Shown here in pieces: positions 14,698 to 25,140 of a stretch of 64,000 nt of DNA (within the stretch, counting starts at the first letter, position 1; each line of letters opens with the position of its first letter). A model generated the notes under the pieces. It was not told the DNA's origin. It saw only the letters and a program-made list of their open reading frames with translations, and searched no databases. The stretch comes from an uncultured bacterium (lineage in GTDB: Bacteria > Patescibacteriota > Minisyncoccia > UBA6257 > GWB1-50-10). The position numbers and the translations under genes were made by a program. The stretch covers positions 372-64,371 of the forward strand of contig CAIKKG010000005.1 in the NCBI GenBank assembly GCA_903827975.1. The letters are read 5' to 3'.

Positions 14698-14769
14698 TCC
14701 CCGGTAGCTCAGTGGTAGAGCGGCGCGCTGTTAACGCGATGGTCGTAGGTTCGAATCCTACCCGGGGAG
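14698..14769 (+). tRNA. tRNA-Asn (anticodon GTT); CCA not encoded
   Basis: acceptor TCCCCGG/CCGGGGA, D-arm GCTCAGTGGTAGAGC, anticodon loop CTGTTAA, T-arm GTAGGTTCGAATCCTAC. Confidence 0.85.
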
Positions 14770-14771
14770 CA
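14754..14771 (+). repeat. attL core: 3' end of tRNA-Asn (aatcctacccggggagca), repeated exactly at 24181..24198
   Basis: 18/18 identity between the two copies, same orientation. Confidence 0.65.
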
Positions 14772-16326
14772 CGATAGGTTGAGAGGGCACGAAAGTGCTC
14801 TCTTTTCCTTTATTAGAGCCACCTTTCTCCAGTTCGAGAGTTTCATTTACTCGTGGCATCCATTCTGCCAAAAAGCCGAAGGCTTTTGTGTATTCTGGCT
14901 TTATTGTTCCTTGCAAAACAGAGATGTTCGAGAAAGCGTAAGCCAACAGCAATCGGCGCTCTTCCGTAGTTGCTTTATCGCTCTGATAGATCTTCCCAGC
15001 TCTCAATGCCAGCTCGTGAATCGCCACCCCAACTTTGTAATATTCAGTATTGTCCGAATTTAACTTTCTAAGAGATTCAGTTAAGATCTCTCGCTCTTGT
15101 CCAAAACTCTCAACCCTCTGATCATAGAACTCTGTTGAAATTCTGCCATCCAATTTATCTTCGTACATAATCTTTAGACGTTGCTGGATGCGCTGGAGGC
15201 TCGCATTAATGCCATTCACCTGCGCTTCGTGAAGTTCGATCTCCTTGCCGTGGCTCTCCTTTAGGGCTTTGTTGAGAATACCCATAATCCTCTCGTTTTT
15301 AGGCGCTACAGAGCTAATTTGAGCCATTAGGTGGCTTTCTACGTCCTCCTGTCGTATGTACTTCCTGTCGATGGCTAGCTGTGCCTTGCACTGTTTACAC
15401 CCGCCATACCATTGTCCTTTTTGGAGTTCCCAAGTGACCGTCTTTTTACAACTGCCGCAAAAGACTTTGCCTCTTAATTCCTTGATGTGCTTAACGTGGT
15501 AAGGGGCGCTTGATCGGGTTAACTTGGCTTTAACCTGCTCAAACAAATCACGAGAAATAATGGGTTCTTGTTTACCTTCGTACTCTTTATCCTTCCATAT
15601 AAATTTACCGTAATAGAATGGGTCTGAAAGTAGCGCGTGGATTTTACTTTTCACAACTCTGCCACCTCCACGACTACGAAAGCCACTCTCGTACATTTTC
15701 TCTCCCAAAGAAACTGTTGAGTAATTTCCCGTCGCGTAAAGTGTAAACATCTCTCTTATGCGTGGAGCAACATTTTCATCTATCACGTGGATCTTGTGAC
15801 CTTTTTCACCAATGGTTTTATATCCTAACGGTGGTTTAGTTGGAAGCCAACCTTGTGCAGTCTTCTCTTTCTGACCTTTCTTAACTTCTTCCGATAAGTT
15901 ATTGGTATAGAAGCGAGCCATAGCCACTTTCATATCCCATACAAAGTTTTCGTGTGCTCGCGTGTTTTTACTGACAACGAAGTTTTCTTTTACGAAGTGG
16001 ATTTCACGGCTTGCTCCTTCTAATATCCAGTCACTCGCAGTTGCCGCATCCTTAAGATTACGCGTTAAACGATCAATCTTCTCACACAGAATGACATTGA
16101 TGTTTTTATTGGTGACGTATTGGATCATCTCAATAAACATCTTTCTTATTTGTTTTCCACTTGCTGACTCTGTAACTTTGTAGATCTTTACCAGCTCAAA
16201 ACCTTTTTGTTCTGCATAATCCTTCAAGAGTTTTTCTTGCGCCTCCAAAGAATATCCTGTTTCCTCTTGTTCTTTTGAGGATACACGAGCGTAGATTACT
16301 GCTTTAATTTTCTTAGTAGTTTCCAT
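14758..16326 (-). CDS. large serine recombinase (resolvase/invertase catalytic domain + recombinase domain + zinc-ribbon/coiled-coil)
   Basis: N-terminal AVIYARVSSKEQ catalytic-Ser motif; 522 aa; CGSCKK...CKQCK zinc ribbon; 3' end overlaps tRNA-Asn 3' end. Confidence 0.85.
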   Translation of the reverse strand: METTKKIKAVIYARVSSKEQEETGYSLEAQEKLLKDYAEQKGFELVKIYKVTESASGKQIRKMFIEMIQYVTNKNINVILCEKIDRLTRNLKDAATASDWILEGASREIHFVKENFVVSKNTRAHENFVWDMKVAMARFYTNNLSEEVKKGQKEKTAQGWLPTKPPLGYKTIGEKGHKIHVIDENVAPRIREMFTLYATGNYSTVSLGEKMYESGFRSRGGGRVVKSKIHALLSDPFYYGKFIWKDKEYEGKQEPIISRDLFEQVKAKLTRSSAPYHVKHIKELRGKVFCGSCKKTVTWELQKGQWYGGCKQCKAQLAIDRKYIRQEDVESHLMAQISSVAPKNERIMGILNKALKESHGKEIELHEAQVNGINASLQRIQQRLKIMYEDKLDGRISTEFYDQRVESFGQEREILTESLRKLNSDNTEYYKVGVAIHELALRAGKIYQSDKATTEERRLLLAYAFSNISVLQGTIKPEYTKAFGFLAEWMPRVNETLELEKGGSNKGKESTFVPSQPIVLPG

Positions 16327-17362: not shown

Positions 17363-17385
17363 AAAAGCCCTATTTAGGGCAATGC
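17363..17385 (-). terminator. rho-independent terminator after the wHTH gene
   Basis: minus-strand gccctaaatagggc followed by TTTTTTT. Confidence 0.55.
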
Positions 17386-17417: not shown

Positions 17418-18044
17418 TTAGACAAAAGTCTTAATTACCTTGTATGGAGATTTTATACCGTATCCACTGCTTGATTTAGATTCAATAATATCTACCTTCA
17501 AAAAGTGATCTATGTTCTTCTTGATTTTACCTATTTCTGACCGTACGTTCTTTAGATCTTTACCGCCCAGATACTCTGAAATATCCTCCGTTCTTTGTAG
17601 ACCTACATTGTCGACAAGGTAGGTTAAAATTTTTAGACGCTCGCTATCTTCTCCAATATGGTAACAAAGTTTACTTTTATCGCCGTGCCAAAGATCTCCA
17701 TTTTTATCTAAATAGAGAATTGTGCTCGTACCATTGTTGGTAAGCCCTATCTCGCTCACTAATTCGGAAGCCCTTTCTCTGAAATAGCTAGAGAACCAGA
17801 TGTTATAGATATCGTAGTCTGGCTCTTCTTCATATTCAGCATCCTTTCCTGACCAGAACTCATATTTCTCAATGAGTCCCTTTTCTTTCAGGTTATCCAT
17901 AATGCGAATGAGATCTGCTCCGCTAACACCCTCACTCAACAGGTCATCTGCCTTAACCTCGATATGCCGCACCGTTTCTGCTCCCAATAAATGGGTTTGA
18001 AGCAGGTTATTGAGAACTATTGATATCTTGGCGTTCGCATCCAT
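17418..18044 (-). CDS. putative transcriptional regulator with C-terminal OmpR/PhoB-type winged helix and no receiver domain
   Basis: C-terminus LKILTYLVDNVGLQRTEDISEYLG...VRSEIGKIKKNI...SGYGI fits the trans_reg_C pattern; 12 nt downstream of the Type IIG gene. Confidence 0.45.
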   Translation of the reverse strand: MDANAKISIVLNNLLQTHLLGAETVRHIEVKADDLLSEGVSGADLIRIMDNLKEKGLIEKYEFWSGKDAEYEEEPDYDIYNIWFSSYFRERASELVSEIGLTNNGTSTILYLDKNGDLWHGDKSKLCYHIGEDSERLKILTYLVDNVGLQRTEDISEYLGGKDLKNVRSEIGKIKKNIDHFLKVDIIESKSSSGYGIKSPYKVIKTFV

Positions 18045-18055
18045 ATCGTTAATGC

Positions 18056-20809
18056 CTAACGGTCATCTTTAACAGAGCTCCGAATTCTGTATAGGTCTAG
18101 TAAAGATTTCTTAATGCTTTCTTTCAAATTAAGAAGATTGATCGGGGTTAAGACAGCAACGTCCAAGGCATCACGATCAGTCTTTGTAAGCTCATCTTCA
18201 AGATTAAAAATACCCCTTCGTTTAATAGCATTAAACTTGTCGAGAATGTCCTTTTTTTGATCCTCGCTATATAGCGATGGATTGAGAATAAATAAATCCT
18301 TCTCTAGTTTGTCCTTACTAAGATCAAGAGCTCCCTCACCTCTGCCTGTGCCTAAAGCCTCAATGTAAAAAAGACCGAGAGTGCTATTCAGTAAGGCGTG
18401 ACAGAGCTCAACATCAGTGCTTAGATCTTTGCGCGTAAAACGAACTAGTCGTTGATTTACGAAGGTTGGTTCTGCAAACTTAGCGAAGAACAATCTATCG
18501 CCAAAGTTAATACTCGTGACAATTTCAGCCATTGTAGTGGGTGTCATTGTGTACCACTCTATATTTGGTCTTCGAAGTGCTAAAGGAAGGGCAATGCCCG
18601 TGCCGTTAGTTTTAGACTCAAAACTCTTTATCCAATTTATAGCCCCACTTTTACCAGCTCTTTCTAGCTCATCAATAGATTCAGTACAACAAAACGCCAC
18701 AGCGTCTGGTTCAGCAGTCAGGTTGGTTATGGATCGAGGGGTTCTTAAAACTGGCTTTAAAAATTCTGGCTCAATCGAGTGTGTTCCTTCGGGATAAAAC
18801 ATATCATCCCAGCCTCTGCGTTCTCCTCTTGCTATCTCAAATAGAGTGGAAGCTTTTACAAGGAACGGCTCGAGAGCAGTGATCCAATTATTATCAGTAA
18901 ATAAACTATTTAAATTTAAGCCAAATTTTTTGAGTGCAGTAATATCGGAATTAGAATACGTATTGATATGAATATCATTTTCATCAACCGCCTCTTTTAG
19001 TGAGACCAGAGCGGTAAGTTCACTCATATCTTGATCGCTTATGTGCTTAAGTGGTCGTTTGGTTACAACAAATTTAGTTTTTAGAGCCTCGTCTTTAGCG
19101 GGCGTTGACTTCTTCTTCAGGATCACGATATTTGTAACGACTTTGGCGTTATCAAACCATCTTCCACTGCCTGAAGTAATCACTGACTCGATGTGATAAA
19201 AAGCACTAAGATTTTCAAAGAAGCCTTCTCCCCATTTCGTTCCAAGCCACGAGTTTGAAATTATGAACGCCAAAGTCCCTTCATTCCTAAGAAGTTTCCA
19301 GAAATAAAATGGTAAATATGCATACAAATCACTCCTGCCATCTAGTGCAGTATTTGAACCTAAGGTAGCTTCTATAAAATCATTGATGCTTGGAGCTTCT
19401 GGATTTAGAACCTCCATATCCTCTTGTTGCACAAATGGTAAATTTGAAATAATGCAATCGAATTCAGGTATCTTTACCTTAAGCAAACTCCCATTGTAAG
19501 GATCGCGTAAATCAATTTCTTTACCGACTTGAATTTTTGTCGCGTCTTCTTTAAAAACCTGCAAGACTTTTCCCATTGCTTCGGGATCAAGCATATTAAA
19601 CATTGCCATCTGCAATGGAAGAGAAAACTTGTCACTTGCCCAAGTTGTTTTTAAGGCATCCTCAACACCCAAAACAGCTTTCTTTTGCACGAGAATCTCC
19701 CTTGCGATTGTTCCACTTCCACAACAAGGATCGATAGCTATCGCATTTTTATTCTTCATCGCAAGACCCACAATGAACTTTGCTAACTCATTTGGGGTTG
19801 TAAACTGTCCTGCAAACTTTCTTTTGTTTCTATATACGGTGTGACCGATTAGATCGTGCAAGAGAGTTTTTTCAATATTCTGGAAGTTCAGTGCCTTCAG
19901 AAAACCATTGAAATCAATCATATCCGCCCAAACTTCTGCGGAGATATATTTTTCGGTTGGCTGTGTTTGAAATATATTCCAAAAATCCACCTTCTGACTA
20001 ATGTCTTGAAAGACCTGCAACCCATCTTGCAAGGAAGTTGTTGAGTCTATTTGGTCAATTTTATTTGCGTCGGATTGGTAAGATTTTAAAATATGAGCAA
20101 AAAGAAATTTGTTTATGAGATAGATTAAGTTCATCCTTGAAAGAACGACAAACTTGTCGGTTTCTTCTGGGTGATCGTTCTTGGCATATCTCCACCACAG
20201 ATTTACCTCTGCTTCGATATCAGAATCCTTCACGGATTCATTTTTTAGATTCTCTATATAGCTTCCAATATTCCTATCAATCAACTTTGAGACTTGTTCG
20301 CTATTTAAAACACTAACTACAGACGTGGCTTTTATTTGTCCGCTTTGGATATAATCGTTTAAATCATTAAGTATTTTATGCAACTCAATCTTGATCTCAT
20401 CAGCTTTTTGCTCAACCTCATCTCGAACGTGAATGTGTGATAGCCCATCCCAAATCTTAACTTTTTCAAGAGATCCATCTTCATTAATTTTGTATAGAAC
20501 AGCAACTGAAACATTCCAAAGCAAGAAGCTGTTGAGAGAAAGTAGATCTGCCTTCTTTTTTGCATTAAGAATAAACTCTTGATCGTTGATATCCGTATCA
20601 GGCATCTTTAACTCCCAGCCTTGTACAATTCTTCCCTTTATTTCATCACCAAAAAGCAATACGTCAGGAAAAAGTGACTTCTTGTTTTCCTTCAACGTGT
20701 TTTCACCGCCCGCACGTTTTATTGAGGTGTTTTTAGTTGAAGCCCAGAGATTAATCTCGCTAATTAGATCTATTGCCCAACTTCTCTCATTGTAATTAAT
20801 TGTTGGCAT
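18056..20809 (-). CDS. Type IIG (MmeI-like) restriction-modification enzyme: N-terminal PD-ExK nuclease + gamma-class N6-adenine methyltransferase + C-terminal target-recognition region
   Basis: 917 aa (MmeI is ~919); N-terminal FPDVLLFGDE...GWELK (PD...ExK); motif X/I FTTPNELAKFIV...IDPCCGSGTIAREI; motif IV IISNLPFVQ (non-canonical NLPF). Confidence 0.65.
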   Translation of the reverse strand: MPTINYNERSWAIDLISEINLWASTKNTSIKRAGGENTLKENKKSLFPDVLLFGDEIKGRIVQGWELKMPDTDINDQEFILNAKKKADLLSLNSFLLWNVSVAVLYKINEDGSLEKVKIWDGLSHIHVRDEVEQKADEIKIELHKILNDLNDYIQSGQIKATSVVSVLNSEQVSKLIDRNIGSYIENLKNESVKDSDIEAEVNLWWRYAKNDHPEETDKFVVLSRMNLIYLINKFLFAHILKSYQSDANKIDQIDSTTSLQDGLQVFQDISQKVDFWNIFQTQPTEKYISAEVWADMIDFNGFLKALNFQNIEKTLLHDLIGHTVYRNKRKFAGQFTTPNELAKFIVGLAMKNKNAIAIDPCCGSGTIAREILVQKKAVLGVEDALKTTWASDKFSLPLQMAMFNMLDPEAMGKVLQVFKEDATKIQVGKEIDLRDPYNGSLLKVKIPEFDCIISNLPFVQQEDMEVLNPEAPSINDFIEATLGSNTALDGRSDLYAYLPFYFWKLLRNEGTLAFIISNSWLGTKWGEGFFENLSAFYHIESVITSGSGRWFDNAKVVTNIVILKKKSTPAKDEALKTKFVVTKRPLKHISDQDMSELTALVSLKEAVDENDIHINTYSNSDITALKKFGLNLNSLFTDNNWITALEPFLVKASTLFEIARGERRGWDDMFYPEGTHSIEPEFLKPVLRTPRSITNLTAEPDAVAFCCTESIDELERAGKSGAINWIKSFESKTNGTGIALPLALRRPNIEWYTMTPTTMAEIVTSINFGDRLFFAKFAEPTFVNQRLVRFTRKDLSTDVELCHALLNSTLGLFYIEALGTGRGEGALDLSKDKLEKDLFILNPSLYSEDQKKDILDKFNAIKRRGIFNLEDELTKTDRDALDVAVLTPINLLNLKESIKKSLLDLYRIRSSVKDDR

Positions 20810-21626
20810 ATGTTTTGATTTTCAACTTCGGATTTACTTCCTTGATGCGTTTTTCAGTAATAGAGATCAAATCTACTTTCTTTTTTTGATGCAGATCGGT
20901 CTCTTTATTTAGCTCTATTCCTACAAACTTTCTATCCTCCAAAGCAGCAGAGACCAAGAAACTTCCACTCCCAGAAGTATTATCTAGCACCAACTCACCT
21001 TTATTTGTGTATGTCCTGATCAAATACTGACCCAATTCAACTGGCTTTTGCGTAGGATGGTACACCTCACCTTCGCTTTCTGCTGTCTTAAAGTAAATAA
21101 CATCACTAGGGTAGCGCTTACCGTCACTTTTAACTTCTTGCGAGTTAAAATCACCATAACTGCCAGTAAGCTGGTTTTTCCTAAAGCCTTTGTTATACGG
21201 CTCACCCTCTGACATTTGAGGGTTGTAAGTAGGTTGGTATATTTTGTTTCTATAAAAAATACAAACATCCTCGTGTTTTCGTAGAGGCTGCTTTTTTGCA
21301 TTTAAGAAATTAGTCGCCTTGGATTTTACCCAAGAAAGTTTGTACTTAAATAGTGTTGTATTGCTCATAATAAGTTGAGCCGTAAAAACACCTTGTGAAG
21401 TAAGAGCGATGACGCCATTAGGCTTTATTATTCGTTCGTACTCCTTCCAAAGTTCTTCAAGGGGTATTATGCTGTCCCATTTGTTTTGGGTTGTACCGTA
21501 AGGCAAATCACACAAAATCATATCCACACTCTTATCTGGAAAGCGTGACATCACGCTCAAACAATCACCCTCAAATAGGCTGTTCTCTATTTGTTTTTTT
21601 GTAAGCTTTTTAGTTGGCATAATCAT
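20796..21626 (-). CDS. beta-class DNA methyltransferase (N6-adenine or N4-cytosine)
   Basis: motif IV DLPYGT precedes motif I NTSGSGSF (IV-then-I order means beta class); 276 aa. Confidence 0.8.
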   Translation of the reverse strand: MIMPTKKLTKKQIENSLFEGDCLSVMSRFPDKSVDMILCDLPYGTTQNKWDSIIPLEELWKEYERIIKPNGVIALTSQGVFTAQLIMSNTTLFKYKLSWVKSKATNFLNAKKQPLRKHEDVCIFYRNKIYQPTYNPQMSEGEPYNKGFRKNQLTGSYGDFNSQEVKSDGKRYPSDVIYFKTAESEGEVYHPTQKPVELGQYLIRTYTNKGELVLDNTSGSGSFLVSAALEDRKFVGIELNKETDLHQKKKVDLISITEKRIKEVNPKLKIKTYANN

Positions 21627-21796
21627 TTGATTGTTGTCTTTTTGAGAAAAATCTCAAACTCACTCTTGCCAATCCTGAACTCTTTTCCTATTTTATGAGC
21701 TCTAATTTTGTGGGCTTTGATGTAGCGATAAATGGTCATTATATTGACCTGCAACTTGTCCGCTAAATCTTGAGCTGTATAAAATTCTTTATTCAT
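21623..21796 (-). CDS. excisionase-family HTH DNA-binding protein (57 aa), possible R-M controller or Xis; not in the ORF track
   Basis: own translation MNKEFYTAQDLADKLQVNIMTIYRYIKAHKIRAHKIGKEFRIGKSEFEIFLKK matches the excisionase/MerR-type HTH pattern; ATGA overlaps with both neighbours. Confidence 0.5.
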   Translation of the reverse strand: MNKEFYTAQDLADKLQVNIMTIYRYIKAHKIRAHKIGKEFRIGKSEFEIFLKKTTIK

Positions 21797-22557
21797 ATTC
21801 TCTTGAGCTGTTCCATAACTCTACCCGCTAAATCCCTCTTATCAATCATAAATGCGTCCCACTTATTACTATCCTTCTTTTGCTTTCCAGAAACAAAACC
21901 GAGTAAGTCGTTTTTGTCTTTGTGCGCCATACGAATGAAGTCTGGAGCTGGCACAAACCAGACATAGTCGTGGACATCGCCCTTAGACGTGTCGAACAGA
22001 CAAAAAACAAAAGCCATTGAATAATTGTCTACTGCGCTTCGCTGTTTAACCGTTGCAACAAACGGACGACTAAAGTCTTCGCTAAAATTACTTTTAATCT
22101 GTATGTAAATAGATTTTAGACTCCCTTTTTCTTTTACAATGAGATCTATACCTTCGTCATCAGAGAGGGGGCGGTAGCACGAAAGATTAGTGCCATAGAG
22201 CAGGACTAGTTCCGAGACACGCGCTTCAACAATGTTTCCTTTTTGCACAGACATCAAAGTGTCTGAAACTTTATATTCTTTTTCTTCGTGCTCTTCGCTA
22301 AGTTCCTCCTCTTGCTTTATTGTCTTTATTGTCTCGTTTAGTGCAAAAGTACTTGGAGCTGTTTTAATAAAAAGTGAACCTGATCCTTTTTTATTTACAT
22401 CCACTACAAGTTGGGCGTTCATTGTAGCCGCAGGAGTTTTGCCAGCAGTTTTAAGCCAACCACGCTTTAGGGCAATTTTTGTAATCTCCTCGTAGTGGAG
22501 TGGTTTATCAGCTTCTTTGAGGATTTCATAGGCAACGCCCTTAAACGTGTTTACCAT
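21793..22557 (-). CDS. HARE-HTH domain fused to a PD-(D/E)xK restriction-endonuclease-like domain
   Basis: N-terminus FKGVAYEILKEADKPLHYEEITKIALKRGWLKTAGKTPAATMNAQL = HARE-HTH pattern; C-terminus DDEGIDLIVKEK...IQIK nuclease-like. Confidence 0.5.
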   Translation of the reverse strand: MVNTFKGVAYEILKEADKPLHYEEITKIALKRGWLKTAGKTPAATMNAQLVVDVNKKGSGSLFIKTAPSTFALNETIKTIKQEEELSEEHEEKEYKVSDTLMSVQKGNIVEARVSELVLLYGTNLSCYRPLSDDEGIDLIVKEKGSLKSIYIQIKSNFSEDFSRPFVATVKQRSAVDNYSMAFVFCLFDTSKGDVHDYVWFVPAPDFIRMAHKDKNDLLGFVSGKQKKDSNKWDAFMIDKRDLAGRVMEQLKRI

Positions 22558-22619
22558 AGATTTAATTATACTTTACAATGCTTTACACAACAATTAGATA
22601 TGTGGATAATGATTGATAT

Positions 22620-23435
22620 ATGGCACTTATAGCATCAAGAATATTGAGTGATCGGCTAGATTTTGAAACTCATCTCAAATACGCTTCTCGACTCGCCAAG
22701 CTTACAACAGGACTTTCTGTTACTTGTTCTATAAAACCTCTCTTAGTCAAATCAAAAATTACAAATCTTCAAAATAAATCAAAACTGATTGAGCTTACAA
22801 AAAAATCAATAAAGGATGAGCACGAGATAGTTCAGTTTGATAAGGAGTATTCCACTGCTTCGGTATTATGGTTACCCATTAAAACTTATTACTTAACCTA
22901 CCACCTGCTCTGCACAATCGAGTACCTTTTGGGTGGGAATGAGGGATCTTTGTCAGAAAAGCATTACAAGTGTATGGATATTTTCACAAAAAGGCTCTCG
23001 GATGGAACTTTAAAATTCAGTGAACCATTACTAAATAGTGTTTTTGATAAATCAATTCTAAATTTTCGAACAACATCAGGTGAACACCTAAGAACAGGTG
23101 TTTCGGATGAGATTATCTACAAATTGCTAATGAAAAAAGTTGCCAACGACAAGATAGAGAATTTTAAGGTCGCCAATGGCATACCAGACGTGAGAAGCCT
23201 TAAGAATAAGGAACGAGTGGAGAAATTTAAAAACTCTTTAACAGTATCCGTGTTCGACTTTTTTCACCTGATGCGACTAAGAATGAATTACCGAAACTTT
23301 GATTTTGTTGATTCTGTAACGTCATCGAATACAAAGGCGTATTTTGAGGAGTATTACAAAGCGTCAGGTTATTTCTATACAGCCCTCAATAACCTAAAAA
23401 ACAAGATAATAACTGACATTTCAGTTGGAAGCTGA
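22620..23435 (+). CDS. hypothetical protein (Lys-rich, helical; candidate abortive-infection/defence accessory)
   Basis: 271-aa ORF divergent from the R-M operon; N-terminal R-x5-H (RLDFETH); no confident family assignment. Confidence 0.35.
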   Translation: MALIASRILSDRLDFETHLKYASRLAKLTTGLSVTCSIKPLLVKSKITNLQNKSKLIELTKKSIKDEHEIVQFDKEYSTASVLWLPIKTYYLTYHLLCTIEYLLGGNEGSLSEKHYKCMDIFTKRLSDGTLKFSEPLLNSVFDKSILNFRTTSGEHLRTGVSDEIIYKLLMKKVANDKIENFKVANGIPDVRSLKNKERVEKFKNSLTVSVFDFFHLMRLRMNYRNFDFVDSVTSSNTKAYFEEYYKASGYFYTALNNLKNKIITDISVGS

Positions 23436-23939
23436 ATGTTCTAATTCGGTATACTTTTTCGCAAAATTACCCATCGCTCTTTTGATAAGTGCTATCTGTT
23501 CTGGGTCAATACTGTGTCTGTCTGATACTTCACCTGTGTGATGCACCTGCGCCCGTGTTGAGAACTCTAGGGGACGCTTACGTTCAAGATACTTTAAAGC
23601 AAGGTCAGCATCGTGCTCTGCCGCGGCTACAACACGTTTACGTAGGACAAAAGAGACTGCGTGCCGTAACTGATCAATTCTGTCCGAAAAGTCGGAGTTT
23701 TGCTTACAGAAATCGTAGTACGTATTTCTTGAAATGCCCGCGTAAAGACAGGACTCTTCAACCGTACAGTCATATACAAAAGCGTGTTCTAGTTTTCGGA
23801 CAACCTCCTGCGTCATTACAGTAGGTCTTCCTGTCCTACCGTGTTTCGGGGCAATCTTGCCCTTAAGCACATAGGCATTGCGCTTGGCGTACTGCTCAAC
23901 CTCACTTACTTTTGGAAATATTATCTTTTTTCTCGTCAT
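23421..23939 (-). CDS. phage terminase small subunit-like (HTH) protein
   Basis: GRPTVMTQEVVRKLEHAF...GISRNTYYDFCKQNSDF matches the TerS GRPTKYT...GIS..T.Y.W pattern. Confidence 0.5.
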   Translation of the reverse strand: MTRKKIIFPKVSEVEQYAKRNAYVLKGKIAPKHGRTGRPTVMTQEVVRKLEHAFVYDCTVEESCLYAGISRNTYYDFCKQNSDFSDRIDQLRHAVSFVLRKRVVAAAEHDADLALKYLERKRPLEFSTRAQVHHTGEVSDRHSIDPEQIALIKRAMGNFAKKYTELEHSASN

Positions 23940-24034
23940 ATAAAATTAGTTCGCCAAAGCCAACAACCTACCTATGGTTGCCACGTGATAGTCAGGATTA
24001 GGGTAGATACTGACCCAATCCATAGTTCGAAAAG

Positions 24035-24146
24035 CGTCCCTCCACGCGAGCTAATGAAAATTAAAACGGCATAAATGCCGTTTTAGTTTTTATCTCGGGT
24101 AGTATTCGAACCGAAGGTGCCCAAAAACAAAGAGCTGAGCGATTAT
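24035..24146 (+). repeat. ~110-bp repeat, copy A (inside island, next to attR); contains hairpin aaaacggcat..atgccgtttt and an inverted tRNA-Asn 3'-like segment ctcgggtagtattcgaacc
   Basis: near-identical to 25006..25140. Confidence 0.65.
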
Positions 24147-24180: not shown

Positions 24181-24198
24181 AATCCTACCCGGGGAGCA
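24181..24198 (+). repeat. attR core: exact copy of tRNA-Asn 3' 18 nt
   Basis: aatcctacccggggagca. Confidence 0.65.
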
Positions 24199-24967: not shown

Positions 24968-25005
24968 TTATGTACTATTGTTCTTCAACAATACTTTTCC
25001 GAACA

Positions 25006-25140
25006 TCGTCCCACTTGCGGAGCTAATGAAAATTAAAACGGCATTTACGCCGTTTTAATTTTTATCTCGGGTAGTATTCGAACCTTTTACAGTAGTACTT
25101 GAAGATTGGGTGAATTGTACCAATAGAGCTGAGTGATATA
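25006..25140 (+). repeat. ~110-bp repeat, copy B (outside island)
   Basis: shares agctaatgaaaattaaaacggcat and tttttatctcgggtagtattcgaacc blocks and the downstream agagctgag[c/t]gat block with copy A. Confidence 0.65.

What the first reader, a model, noticed from the sequence alone, without database searches (positions are those of the whole stretch)
20796..22557. Compact three-gene R-M operon (HARE-HTH nuclease, Xis-like HTH, beta-methyltransferase) with ATGA start/stop overlaps and an unannotated 57-aa middle gene
The nuclease stop overlaps the start of a 57-aa ORF (21623-21796, below the track's 60-aa cutoff). That ORF's stop in turn overlaps the methyltransferase start. Both overlaps are ATGA, implying strict translational coupling.

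The small protein is an excisionase/MerR-type HTH (TIYRYIKAHKIRAHKIGKEFRI) rather than the usual XRE-type controller protein.

The nuclease carries an N-terminal HARE-HTH, a domain known to be fused to restriction nucleases, and a PD-(D/E)xK-like core with a possible QxK variant (IQIK).
Basis: partly seen in the sequence, partly recalled or inferred. Interest (0 to 1): 0.55.

Follow-up and report, generated by a model that had tools for sequence, protein, structure and literature searches.

The report
Accessory nuclease cassette on Type IIG operon
The three overlapping genes are real, but they are the front of a five-gene operon in which a portable "extra nuclease plus small regulator" cassette sits ahead of a complete two-gene restriction-modification system, all on a small mobile island.

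Summary
**Observation: confirmed.** On the minus strand, a 254-aa HARE-HTH/PD-(D/E)xK protein, a 57-aa HTH_17 protein and a 276-aa beta-class methyltransferase are joined by ATGA overlaps.

**Interpretation: only partly right.**
- The operon continues. A 917-aa Type IIG restriction-methylase overlaps the methyltransferase by 14 nt, followed by a 208-aa unknown gene and a terminator-like hairpin.
- The methyltransferase and the IIG enzyme form a self-contained R-M unit. The same pair occurs on two plasmids with no 254-aa or 57-aa gene.
- The 254-aa protein is not the cognate nuclease. More than 600 relatives at 55-91% identity sit tightly next to Type I, III, IIB, IIG and IIS R-M systems, GmrSD and Shedu.
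- In close relatives, a roughly 1-kb cassette (conserved promoter, nuclease, 57-aa gene) precedes at least six different kinds of cargo. DNA homology stops at the end of the 57-aa gene.
- The promoter looks leaderless and carries TGTAAAG direct repeats that occur only where the 57-aa gene is present.
- The whole region is a 9.4-kb island in tRNA-Asn with a serine recombinase.

**Best reading:** an auxiliary, probably modification-discriminating nuclease plus an HTH_17 regulator, fused upstream of a Type IIG system. This is a known kind of association, first described computationally in 2012, here in a new modular form.

The parts
22601..22609 (-). Box A, TTATCCACA (identical to the DnaA-box consensus), 8 nt upstream of the -35 element
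   Evidence: This is the only exact copy in the 64-kb window. The same box at the same 8-nt distance, with a variable spacer, occurs in L068, L070, L072 and L074. Variants occur in L069, L076, L001 and L067. It marks the 5' limit of nucleotide homology to related loci. Its function is unknown.
22565..22593 (-). Conserved promoter: -35 TTGTTG (22593-22588); a 17-nt spacer holding two TGTAAAG direct repeats (22587-22581 and 22577-22571, 10 nt start to start); -10 TATAAT (22570-22565). Only 7 nt and no Shine-Dalgarno sequence lie before the ATG at 22557.
   Evidence: Alignment A4. TTG, the repeats and GTAT are conserved in all 17 loci that carry the 57-aa gene and have upstream sequence. The repeats are absent or degenerate in relatives without that gene. 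Promoter function, a leaderless transcript and operator function are inferred, not shown.
21793..22557 (-). 254-aa accessory nuclease: HARE-HTH (residues 4-74, nt 22336-22548) plus a PD-(D/E)xK domain (about residues 100-254). Predicted catalytic residues are E111, D138 and Q153-x-K155.
   Evidence: Pfam. AlphaFold2 model with pLDDT 94.1. Foldseek hits to the SPARDA DREN nuclease, Hjc, I-Ssp6803I, EcoRV, NhoI and DpnI. Invariant residues. 634 homologues.
21623..21796 (-). 57-aa HTH_17 (excisionase/MerR-type) DNA-binding protein; probable transcription regulator of the operon
   Evidence: Pfam HTH_17 5.7e-11, TIGR01764 9.2e-11 and PADLOC mad1 7.6e-11. Conserved in 19 other loci with the ATGA overlap. 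Its presence coincides with the promoter repeats.
20796..21626 (-). 276-aa beta-class N6A/N4C DNA methyltransferase (motif IV DLPY, then motif I GSGS); companion methylase of the Type IIG enzyme
   Evidence: Pfam N6_N4_Mtase at 89.6 bits and PADLOC MTase_II 4.2e-65. It is 60-62% identical to methylases that overlap IIG homologues on two plasmids and 69% identical to the one in L033.
18056..20809 (-). 917-aa Type IIG restriction-methylase: N-terminal PD-X16-ELK nuclease motif (P48-D49...E66-L67-K68), a gamma-class N6A methylase (DPCCGSG, NLPF) and a TaqI_C-like target-recognition region
   Evidence: PADLOC REase_MTase_IIG PDLC03606 at 1021.7 bits over residues 3-915; Pfam N6_Mtase, Eco57I and a weak TaqI_C hit. 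The motifs were read from the translation. It overlaps the methylase gene by 14 nt.
17418..18044 (-). 208-aa protein of unknown function, last gene of the operon
   Evidence: It starts 11 nt after the IIG stop. No hit in Pfam, NCBIfam-independent PADLOC, PHROGs or PDB searches. No homologue in the related loci.
17367..17380 (-). Terminator-like hairpin GCCCTAAATAGGGC followed by TTTTTTT
14758..16326 (-). Large serine recombinase (522 aa) of the island
   Evidence: Pfam Resolvase, Recombinase and Zn_ribbon_recom. Homologous recombinases close the equivalent islands in L004, L093 and L094, and lie beside the nuclease gene in L089.
14754..14771 (.). Left copy of an exact 18-nt direct repeat, AATCCTACCCGGGGAGCA, at the 3' end of tRNA-Asn (14698-14770); putative att site
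24181..24198 (.). Right copy of the 18-nt repeat; putative other end of the 9.4-kb island
   Evidence: The enclosed region has the opposite GC skew to its flanks.

Best explanation
The locus is a mosaic five-gene defence operon carried on a 9.4-kb island. The island is bounded by an 18-nt repeat, sits in tRNA-Asn and encodes a serine recombinase.

**Module B (21626-18056)** is an ordinary, self-sufficient Type IIG R-M system. A beta-class methyltransferase pairs with a 917-aa nuclease-methylase-specificity fusion enzyme, as in Eco57I-type systems, where a separate methylase accompanies the RM fusion.

**Module A (about 22609-21623)** is a portable cassette of roughly 1 kb. It supplies:
- the operon's promoter, which is apparently leaderless;
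- a 254-aa accessory endonuclease (HARE-HTH DNA-reading domain plus a PD-(D/E)xK/QxK catalytic domain);
- a translationally coupled 57-aa HTH_17 protein.

**Inferred mechanism**
- The 57-aa protein binds the TGTAAAG direct repeats in the -35/-10 spacer and sets expression of the whole operon. Its role would resemble that of R-M controller proteins or MADS Mad1, but with a different fold.
- The 254-aa enzyme acts independently of the neighbouring methylase's sequence specificity, as an auxiliary or backup nuclease.
- Its HARE-HTH domain discriminates DNA by modification state. This would make it Type IV-like, as Mrr is beside EcoKI. It would catch invaders that evade the sequence-specific Type IIG enzyme.

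**Shown:** gene structure, folds, conserved catalytic residues, modular mosaic, association with many R-M types, promoter conservation, island boundaries.

**Inferred:** nuclease activity, what HARE-HTH reads, operator binding, the leaderless start.
For: **Operon anatomy:**

**The IIG enzyme and its methylase form a unit**
- PADLOC IIG model at 1021.7 bits.
- The same pair with overlapping genes on plasmids pDC05 and pCBA3606-1, with no homologue of the 254-aa or 57-aa gene.
- The same pair in L033, with the nuclease homologue on the other side.

**The 254-aa protein is a nuclease**
- AlphaFold2 pLDDT 94.1.
- Foldseek probability 1.0 to the SPARDA DREN nuclease, Hjc, I-Ssp6803I, EcoRV, NhoI and DpnI.
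- E111, D133, D138, Q153 and K155 are at least 90% conserved across 70 homologues down to 21% identity.

**It is an accessory, not a cognate enzyme**
- 634 homologues, mostly 55-91% identical.
- They sit within a few nucleotides of Type I HsdRMS, Type III Mod/Res, BcgI-like, AlwI, IIG, GmrSD-HNH and Shedu genes.
- 34 of 53 loci have recognised R-M genes within 5 kb.
- It also occurs with no R-M nearby (L089).

**Cassette modularity**
- Nucleotide homology to 12 loci runs from 22615/22576 only as far as 21634-21795.
- Six kinds of cargo follow the 57-aa gene.

**Regulator inference**
- The promoter and repeats are conserved in all 17 loci that carry the 57-aa gene.
- They are missing or decayed in relatives that lack it, including L002, whose nuclease is 84% identical.

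**Literature**
- HARE-HTH fused to REase domains in N6A-methylase neighbourhoods, predicted to read modified DNA (PMC4738411, citing Aravind & Iyer 2012).
- HARE-HTH-REase downstream of Dnd modification genes, proposed there to discriminate modified from unmodified DNA as a restriction enzyme (PMC10853773), and listed among the auxiliary/backup effectors of BREX systems (PMC12839542).
- The ASXL1 HARE-HTH domain bound 6mA DNA in pull-downs (PMC6591016).
- MADS Mad1 is a small, dispensable regulator-like protein (bioRxiv 10.1101/2023.03.30.534895).
Against: - No experiment exists on any member of this 254-aa family, and public records call them hypothetical.
- What HARE-HTH reads is disputed: 6mA or cytosine modifications (PMC11037411).
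- A 6mA-dependent nuclease co-expressed with N6A methylases of many specificities risks self-cleavage.
- Gaps of 1-5 nt to hsdS or res genes in many loci could instead mean the protein is a physical subunit of R-M complexes.
- The promoter scan did not score the proposed -35 element, which matches 3 of 6 positions. Promoter rules in candidate-phyla bacteria are poorly known.
- The match between repeats and the 57-aa gene rests on related sequences, so the loci are not independent events.
Confidence: 0.6

Rival explanations
1. The 254-aa protein is the cognate Type II restriction endonuclease of the 276-aa methylase. The 57-aa protein is its controller. The Type IIG gene is a second, unrelated system that happens to follow.
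For: - The gene after the 57-aa gene is a methyltransferase, or a methyltransferase-containing protein, in all 13 loci where sequence is available.
- The ATGA coupling is real.
- The nuclease fold resembles EcoRV and other Type II enzymes.
Against: - Those methylases belong to different classes and system types (beta, gamma, D12, EcoRI-like; Type I-like, III, IIG). Meanwhile the nuclease stays 80-90% identical.
- Wherever enough sequence is held to see it, a dedicated nuclease follows; in L068 and L074 the contig ends first.
- The 276-aa methylase travels with the IIG enzyme and without the 254-aa gene.
- Nucleotide homology breaks exactly between the 57-aa gene and the methylase.
Confidence: 0.06
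2. A generic methylation-reading restriction subunit. HARE-HTH recognises N6-methyladenine (or its absence) largely independently of sequence. The same nuclease can then use whichever adenine methylase lies next to it as the self mark. This would add a second, sequence-independent restriction layer.
For: - Operon mates are dominated by N6A-type methylases: N6_Mtase 12, N6_N4_Mtase 8, D12 6. No C5 methylase appears among families with two or more members.
- Coupling to hsdS, res and methylase genes is very tight.
- The ASXL1 HARE-HTH domain bound 6mA DNA (PMC6591016).
- Iyer et al. describe these fusions as restriction enzymes of N6A-modifying systems (PMC4738411).
Against: - The family also occurs with no methylase nearby (L089, L008, L034 and others).
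- It also sits beside GmrSD, Shedu and RelA/SpoT-like genes.
- No known mechanism lets a reader-nuclease cut only DNA that lacks a mark without recognising a sequence.
- The list is truncated, so single C5 methylases cannot be excluded.
Confidence: 0.14
3. Island housekeeping rather than defence. The 57-aa excisionase-family protein is the recombination directionality factor of the serine recombinase. The nuclease serves island maintenance or homing, given the I-Ssp6803I-like fold.
For: - The small protein matches the TIGR01764 excisionase family and PHROG 'excisionase and transcriptional regulator'.
- The cassette and a large serine recombinase bracket the cargo in the window, L004, L093 and L094.
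- In the window the island is bounded by a repeat in tRNA-Asn; in L004 and L089 the recombinase gene abuts tRNA-Asp and tRNA-Glu.
- Foldseek hits the homing endonuclease I-Ssp6803I.
Against: - The 57-aa gene and the recombinase do not track each other. L089, L090 and L078 have the recombinase and the nuclease but no 57-aa gene. L092 and L003 have the 57-aa gene but no serine recombinase in view.
- More distant nuclease homologues sit at the ends of Type I and III operons with no recombinase.
- The 57-aa gene lies inside the operon, and its presence matches the promoter repeats.
Confidence: 0.12
4. The 254-aa protein is a catalytically inert DNA-binding regulator, and its PD-(D/E)xK domain serves only for dimerisation.
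For: - It is the first gene behind a conserved promoter.
- HARE-HTH also occurs in non-nuclease proteins such as the RNA polymerase delta subunit and ASXL (own knowledge).
Against: The catalytic constellation E111/D138/Q153-x-K155 is at least 90% conserved across homologues down to 21% identity. That is not expected for an inactivated domain.
Confidence: 0.03

Closest known systems
HARE-HTH + restriction-endonuclease-fold fusion proteins of R-M, Dnd and BREX neighbourhoods (Aravind & Iyer 2012; PMC4738411, PMC10853773, PMC12839542)
   Same: - Same two-domain architecture.
- Same genomic habit, next to N6-adenine methylases and other modification-based defence systems.
- Same predicted role as a modification-discriminating or backup nuclease.
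   Different: - This clade is unusually conserved (55-91% identity) and is centred on Patescibacteria.
- Here it heads the operon with its own promoter and a coupled HTH_17 gene, forming a swappable cassette.
- No member has been tested experimentally.
- I could not read the 2012 paper, so I cannot say whether this exact clade was listed there.
E. coli Mrr (Type IV enzyme beside the EcoKI hsdRMS genes)
   Same: An N-terminal winged-helix-type DNA reader plus a C-terminal PD-QxK nuclease, located next to a Type I R-M system and independent of its specificity (own knowledge of Mrr).
   Different: - The Pfam Mrr_cat hit is below threshold: 16.3 bits against 21.
- The best fold matches are DREN (DUF4365), Hjc and I-Ssp6803I rather than Mrr.
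- The N-terminal domain is HARE-HTH, not Mrr_N.
- The protein is co-transcribed with the R-M genes rather than separately.
Eco57I-type Type IIG systems (an RM fusion enzyme plus a separate methylase)
   Same: - The 917-aa enzyme has a nuclease motif, a gamma-class N6A methylase, Eco57I and TaqI_C-like regions, and a full-length PADLOC IIG match.
- A separate methylase gene overlaps it, and the pair is conserved on plasmids.
   Different: - The companion methylase here is a small beta-class enzyme, not the gamma-class M.Eco57I type seen in L092.
- There is no sequence match to the solved IIG structures; the only PDB hit is M.BseCI at 5.5e-5.
- The recognition sequence is unknown.
Controller (C) proteins of Type II R-M systems, and Mad1 of MADS
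   Same: A small HTH protein encoded inside a methylation-based defence operon, next to a promoter with repeated motifs and a very short or absent leader. The PADLOC mad1 model matches over its full length at 7.6e-11.
   Different: - C proteins are XRE-type and lie upstream of the R gene. This protein is HTH_17/excisionase-type and lies between an accessory nuclease and the methylase.
- The NCBIfam MADS1 score is 29.3 against a cut-off of 80.
- No other mad genes are present.
DREN nuclease domain of SPARDA short-Argonaute systems (DUF4365)
   Same: It is the best structural match to the catalytic domain: 9qcc, E 2.7e-5, probability 1.0. Four family members hit DUF4365.
   Different: No Argonaute or APAZ partner is present. 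TM-scores are modest (0.37 on the query). The similarity is at the level of fold, not system.

Membership tests
HARE-HTH domain (PF05066) | Profile match above Pfam's gathering score | tested here: met
   72.9 bits against 25.9, residues 4-74. 19 of 70 distant homologues also match.
PD-(D/E)xK nuclease superfamily | The alpha-beta-beta-beta-alpha-beta core with an acidic residue on strand 2 and (D/E/Q)xK on strand 3 | tested here: met
   Model pLDDT 94.1 with helix 103-121 and strands 125-128, 139-143 and 149-159. Foldseek probability 1.0 to Hjc, I-Ssp6803I, EcoRV and DREN. E111, D138 and Q153-x-K155 are at least 90% conserved.
PDDEXK_5 (PF11645) / Mrr_cat (PF04471) | Profile match above the gathering score | tested here: not met
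   For the window protein: PDDEXK_5 at 17.5 bits against 26.1, and Mrr_cat at 16.3 against 21. Many homologues of 60-65% identity carry a precomputed PF11645 hit, so the family borders on PDDEXK_5.
Cognate Type II restriction endonuclease of the adjacent methylase | Co-inheritance of the nuclease with one methylase lineage of matching specificity | tested here: not met
   The nuclease is found with at least six R-M types. The methylase is found with the IIG enzyme and without the nuclease.
Cognate Type II restriction endonuclease of the adjacent methylase | Cleavage of a defined sequence that the methylase blocks | not testable with these tools
   Needs enzyme assays.
Type IIG restriction-modification enzyme | A single polypeptide with nuclease, gamma-class N6A methylase and target-recognition regions | tested here: met
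   PADLOC PDLC03606 at 1021.7 bits over residues 3-915. Pfam N6_Mtase at 52.1 bits, Eco57I at 37.7 bits and a weak TaqI_C hit. PD...ELK, DPCCGSG and NLPF motifs. Activity was not tested.
Beta-class N6A/N4C DNA methyltransferase (PF01555) | Profile match, with motif IV (DPPY-like) preceding motif I | tested here: met
   89.6 bits against 26.7. DLPY at residues 40-43 and GSGS at about residue 219.
C-protein-controlled R-M system | An XRE-family controller protein | tested here: not met
   The small protein is HTH_17/TIGR01764, with no HTH_3 hit. XRE-type genes do head other operons that contain the nuclease homologue (cluster c4).
C-protein-controlled R-M system | Operator repeats at the promoter, bound by the controller | tested here: inconclusive
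   Direct TGTAAAG repeats in the spacer occur where the 57-aa gene occurs. Binding was not tested.
MADS (methylation-associated defence system) | The mandatory mad6, mad7 and mad8 genes (MacSyFinder model in bioRxiv 10.1101/2023.03.30.534895) | tested here: not met
   Only mad1-like and partial mad2-like hits were found. No other mad model matches any operon or flanking protein. The NCBIfam MADS1 score is below its cut-off.
Integrative island in a tRNA gene | A recombinase gene, plus a direct repeat that duplicates the 3' end of a tRNA | tested here: met
   Exact 18-nt repeat at 14754-14771 (end of tRNA-Asn) and 24181-24198, with a serine recombinase at 14758-16326. Excision was not tested.

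The most novel reading that the evidence does not exclude
The promoter/HARE-HTH-nuclease/HTH_17 cassette is a universal plug-in front end for adenine-methylase-based R-M systems. Its nuclease would read the N6-methyladenine state of DNA largely without regard to sequence. Any neighbouring methylase would then license self DNA for a second, shared restriction activity, while the small HTH protein times expression when the island enters a new host. If so, a single conserved protein would convert many unrelated methylases into two-layer restriction systems.
Probability: 0.14. Interest if true: 0.75.

Novelty: new variant of a known kind. Interest (0 to 1): 0.45.

Why it matters
**Annotation.** The true restriction enzyme here is the Type IIG gene just outside the flagged coordinates.

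**An uncharacterised nuclease family.** The 254-aa protein belongs to a large family of more than 600 sequences, highly conserved and concentrated in Patescibacteria. It is wired into many different R-M systems. Testing it would give the first biochemical answer to what bacterial HARE-HTH domains read. That question also bears on the disputed 6mA-sensor role of human ASXL1.

**A natural example of modular defence-operon assembly.** The roughly 1-kb cassette has sharp boundaries, a conserved leaderless-type promoter and a candidate operator. It could also serve as a compact regulatory part.

Tried and rejected
- **First AlphaFold2 run.** Using 25 close homologues gave pLDDT 56 for the nuclease domain. 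I replaced it with a deeper alignment drawn from the representative search.
- **PDB sequence searches.** The 254-aa protein, its profile, the 57-aa protein and the 208-aa protein gave nothing usable. The 917-aa enzyme hit only M.BseCI.
- **Family libraries.** PADLOC and NCBIfam have no model for the 254-aa protein. PHROGs gave only a weak hit to a family of unknown function.
- **Viral sources.** One relative was found in 2.9 million viral contigs, and BFVD gave only generic PD-(D/E)xK hits. The family is not typically a phage gene.
- **MADS membership.** Considered because of the mad1 and mad2 hits, then rejected.
- **The 57-aa protein as the recombinase's excisionase.** Considered and judged unlikely, because the two genes do not co-occur consistently.
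- **The upstream 375-400-aa gene (c12).** It precedes the nuclease gene in other islands but has no hit in Pfam, PADLOC or PHROGs. It is absent from the window.
- **Access problems.** Aravind & Iyer 2012 (PMC3272235) is not held. One context look-up failed for lack of capacity.

Full report
**1. The observation**

The minus strand carries three ORFs: 22557..21793 (254 aa), 21796..21623 (57 aa) and 21626..20796 (276 aa). Both junctions are ATGA overlaps. The methylase could alternatively start at the next ATG (21620), which would leave a 2-nt gap.

- HARE-HTH at 72.9 bits.
- HTH_17 at 42.9 bits and TIGR01764 'excisionase family' at 41.9 bits.
- N6_N4_Mtase at 89.6 bits.

The operon does not stop at 20796:
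- A 917-aa ORF (20809..18056) overlaps the methylase by 14 nt.
- A 208-aa ORF follows after 11 nt.
- A hairpin followed by a T-run sits at 17380..17367.

**2. The fourth gene is the restriction enzyme**

The 917-aa protein matches PADLOC's Type IIG REase-MTase model end to end at 1021.7 bits. It also hits Pfam N6_Mtase, Eco57I and, weakly, TaqI_C. Its translation shows P48-D49...E66-L67-K68, DPCCGSG and NLPF.

tblastn against plasmids found homologues in two records:
- Rhizorhabdus wittichii pDC05, 38% identity.
- Lactobacillus pCBA3606-1, 28% identity.

In both, a methylase 60-62% identical to the 276-aa protein comes immediately before the homologue and overlaps it. Neither record has any match to the 254-aa or 57-aa proteins.

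In L033 the same pair occurs, with the methylase 69% and the IIG enzyme 45% identical. There the 254-aa homologue lies after it rather than before.

The methylase therefore belongs to the Type IIG enzyme.

**3. The 254-aa protein is a nuclease, but not a cognate one**

A shallow alignment gave a poor model. A 70-sequence alignment that included distant representatives gave pLDDT 94.1.

Foldseek finds PD-(D/E)xK nucleases at probability 1.0:
- the DREN domain of SPARDA;
- archaeal Hjc;
- the homing endonuclease I-Ssp6803I;
- EcoRV, NhoI and DpnI.

G107, E111, D133, G136, D138, Q153, K155 and P203 are at least 90% conserved down to 21% identity.

The family has 634 hits, mostly 55-91% identical and all annotated as hypothetical. 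It is concentrated in Patescibacteria but reaches many other phyla and one archaeon.

**4. Context analysis**

I analysed 86 loci plus four more with precomputed Pfam calls. The homologue lies within a few nucleotides of very different partners:
- Type I HsdR/M/S.
- Type III Mod/Res.
- BcgI-like A + S.
- AlwI with two D12 methylases.
- Type IIG enzymes.
- GmrSD-HNH.
- Shedu.
- A RelA/SpoT-like gene.

Among 125 operon mates, the commonest families were N6_Mtase (12), Methylase_S (10), ResIII (9), Eco57I (9), N6_N4_Mtase (8) and D12 (6).

Recognised R-M genes lie within 5 kb in 34 of 53 loci. This is a lower bound. Some loci have no R-M at all, for example L089.

A protein this conserved cannot share sequence specificity with all these methylases.

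**5. A portable cassette**

In relatives of at least 80% identity, a 57-60-aa HTH_17 gene follows the nuclease gene in 19 other loci. The ATGA overlap is kept in 17 of 20 loci, counting the window.

Six kinds of cargo follow that gene:
- a beta-class methylase plus a IIG enzyme (the window);
- an Eco57I-like IIG enzyme plus an M.Eco57I-like methylase (L092);
- a BcgI-like A subunit (L004, L068, L071), with its S subunit where the contig continues (L004, L071);
- Type III Mod + Res (L003, L072, L073, L085, L093);
- two D12 methylases (L074);
- an EcoRI-methylase-like gene plus GmrSD/HNH (L094).

blastn shows where nucleotide homology runs:
- Between the window and these loci it runs only from about 22615-22587 to 21634-21714.
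- With L002, which lacks the small gene, it stops at 21795, the nuclease stop codon.
- L033 matches only the methylase-IIG part.

The module boundary therefore falls at the 57-aa stop and the methylase start.

**6. Promoter**

Immediately 5' of the nuclease ATG, all 17 loci that carry the small gene and have upstream sequence share one layout:
- TTG (the -35 element);
- a 17-nt spacer holding TGTAAAG-N3-(T/A)GTMAAG;
- TATAAT or TATACT (the -10 element);
- 7-8 nt without a Shine-Dalgarno sequence, then ATG.

In the window these elements lie at 22593-22565. This layout predicts a leaderless or near-leaderless mRNA.

Relatives without the small gene lack the repeats. L002, whose nuclease is 84% identical, retains only a decayed version. 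I infer that the HTH_17 protein binds the repeats. This is untested, and the loci are phylogenetically related rather than independent.

A further box, TTATCCACA, sits 8 nt upstream of the -35 element. It is identical to the DnaA-box consensus and is the only exact copy in the window. It is conserved in position in several loci despite a variable spacer.

**7. The island**

An exact 18-nt repeat occurs at 14754-14771 and at 24181-24198. The first copy is the 3' end of tRNA-Asn. Between the two copies lie:
- a large serine recombinase;
- the operon;
- a divergent 271-aa unknown gene;
- a terminase-small-subunit-like gene.

The enclosed region has inverted GC skew. Equivalent islands in L004, L093 and L094 end with homologous recombinases. 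In L004 and L089 the recombinase gene abuts tRNA-Asp and tRNA-Glu.

The small HTH protein does not track the recombinase, which argues against an excisionase role:
- L089 has the recombinase but not the small gene.
- L092 and L003 have the small gene but no serine recombinase in view.

**8. Comparison with what is known**

HARE-HTH fused to restriction-endonuclease folds beside N6A methylases was described computationally in 2012 and has been cited since as a candidate reader of modified DNA (PMC4738411, PMC6591016, PMC11037411). The same fusion is proposed as a modification-discriminating restriction enzyme in Dnd neighbourhoods and listed among auxiliary or backup effectors of BREX systems (PMC10853773, PMC12839542).

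The architecture parallels Mrr beside EcoKI (own knowledge), but the Pfam Mrr_cat and PDDEXK_5 scores are below threshold for this protein.

The small protein resembles MADS Mad1 in PADLOC (7.6e-11) but not at NCBIfam's cut-off. No other mad genes are present. Mad1 deletion had little effect on defence (bioRxiv 10.1101/2023.03.30.534895).

**9. Verdict**

The sequence-level observation is right. The functional reading is partly wrong.

The locus is a Type IIG R-M system, with a beta-class companion methylase, behind a portable cassette of an accessory nuclease and a regulator, all on a tRNA-integrated island.

The kind is known. Three things appear new:
- the sharply bounded cassette;
- its conserved leaderless-type promoter with repeats linked to the small gene;
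- its use in front of at least six kinds of cargo.

The biochemical role of the nuclease remains inferred.

Noticed in passing
window 14754-14771 and 24181-24198; tRNA-Asn at 14698-14770: An exact 18-nt direct repeat duplicates the 3' end of tRNA-Asn and brackets a 9.4-kb segment with inverted GC skew. The segment holds the serine recombinase and the whole operon, so it is probably an integrated mobile island.
   Followed up: partly
window 23421-23939 (minus strand): A 172-aa protein inside the island matches phage terminase small subunit families (phrog_4102, 6.1e-23). No other phage structural genes are nearby. This suggests a satellite-like or remnant element.
   Followed up: no
window 22601-22609 (minus strand): TTATCCACA, identical to the DnaA-box consensus, is the only exact copy in 64 kb. 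It sits 8 nt upstream of the -35 element, and its position is conserved in several related loci. It is unknown whether DnaA, the HTH_17 protein or the HARE-HTH domain binds it.
   Followed up: partly
window 24028-24112 and 25000-25084: An 85-nt element is repeated at 86% identity. Each copy contains a perfect hairpin (AAAACGGCAT...ATGCCGTTTT) that looks like a bidirectional terminator. The copies lie just outside and beyond the island's right end.
   Followed up: no
L068 1931-3118, L004 4858-5985, L074 461-1585, L076 3773-4975, L093 4779-5981, L094 4856-5998: A conserved 375-400-aa protein with no hit in Pfam, PADLOC or PHROGs comes immediately before the nuclease gene in many sister islands. 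It is absent from the window, where a divergent 271-aa unknown gene occupies that side.
   Followed up: partly
window 17418-18044 (minus strand): A 208-aa protein is co-transcribed after the Type IIG gene. It has no detectable homologue in any library or related locus searched.
   Followed up: partly
L004 10280-11838; L089 4183-5654: In sister islands the 3' end of the large serine recombinase gene overlaps a tRNA gene (tRNA-Asp, tRNA-Glu), as in the window. These recombinases appear to target tRNA genes, which is more usual for tyrosine integrases.
   Followed up: partly
L094 6941-9230: One sister island carries an EcoRI-methylase-like gene paired with a GmrSD_N/HNH protein as its cargo. This is an unusual methylase-plus-GmrSD-like combination.
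   Followed up: no
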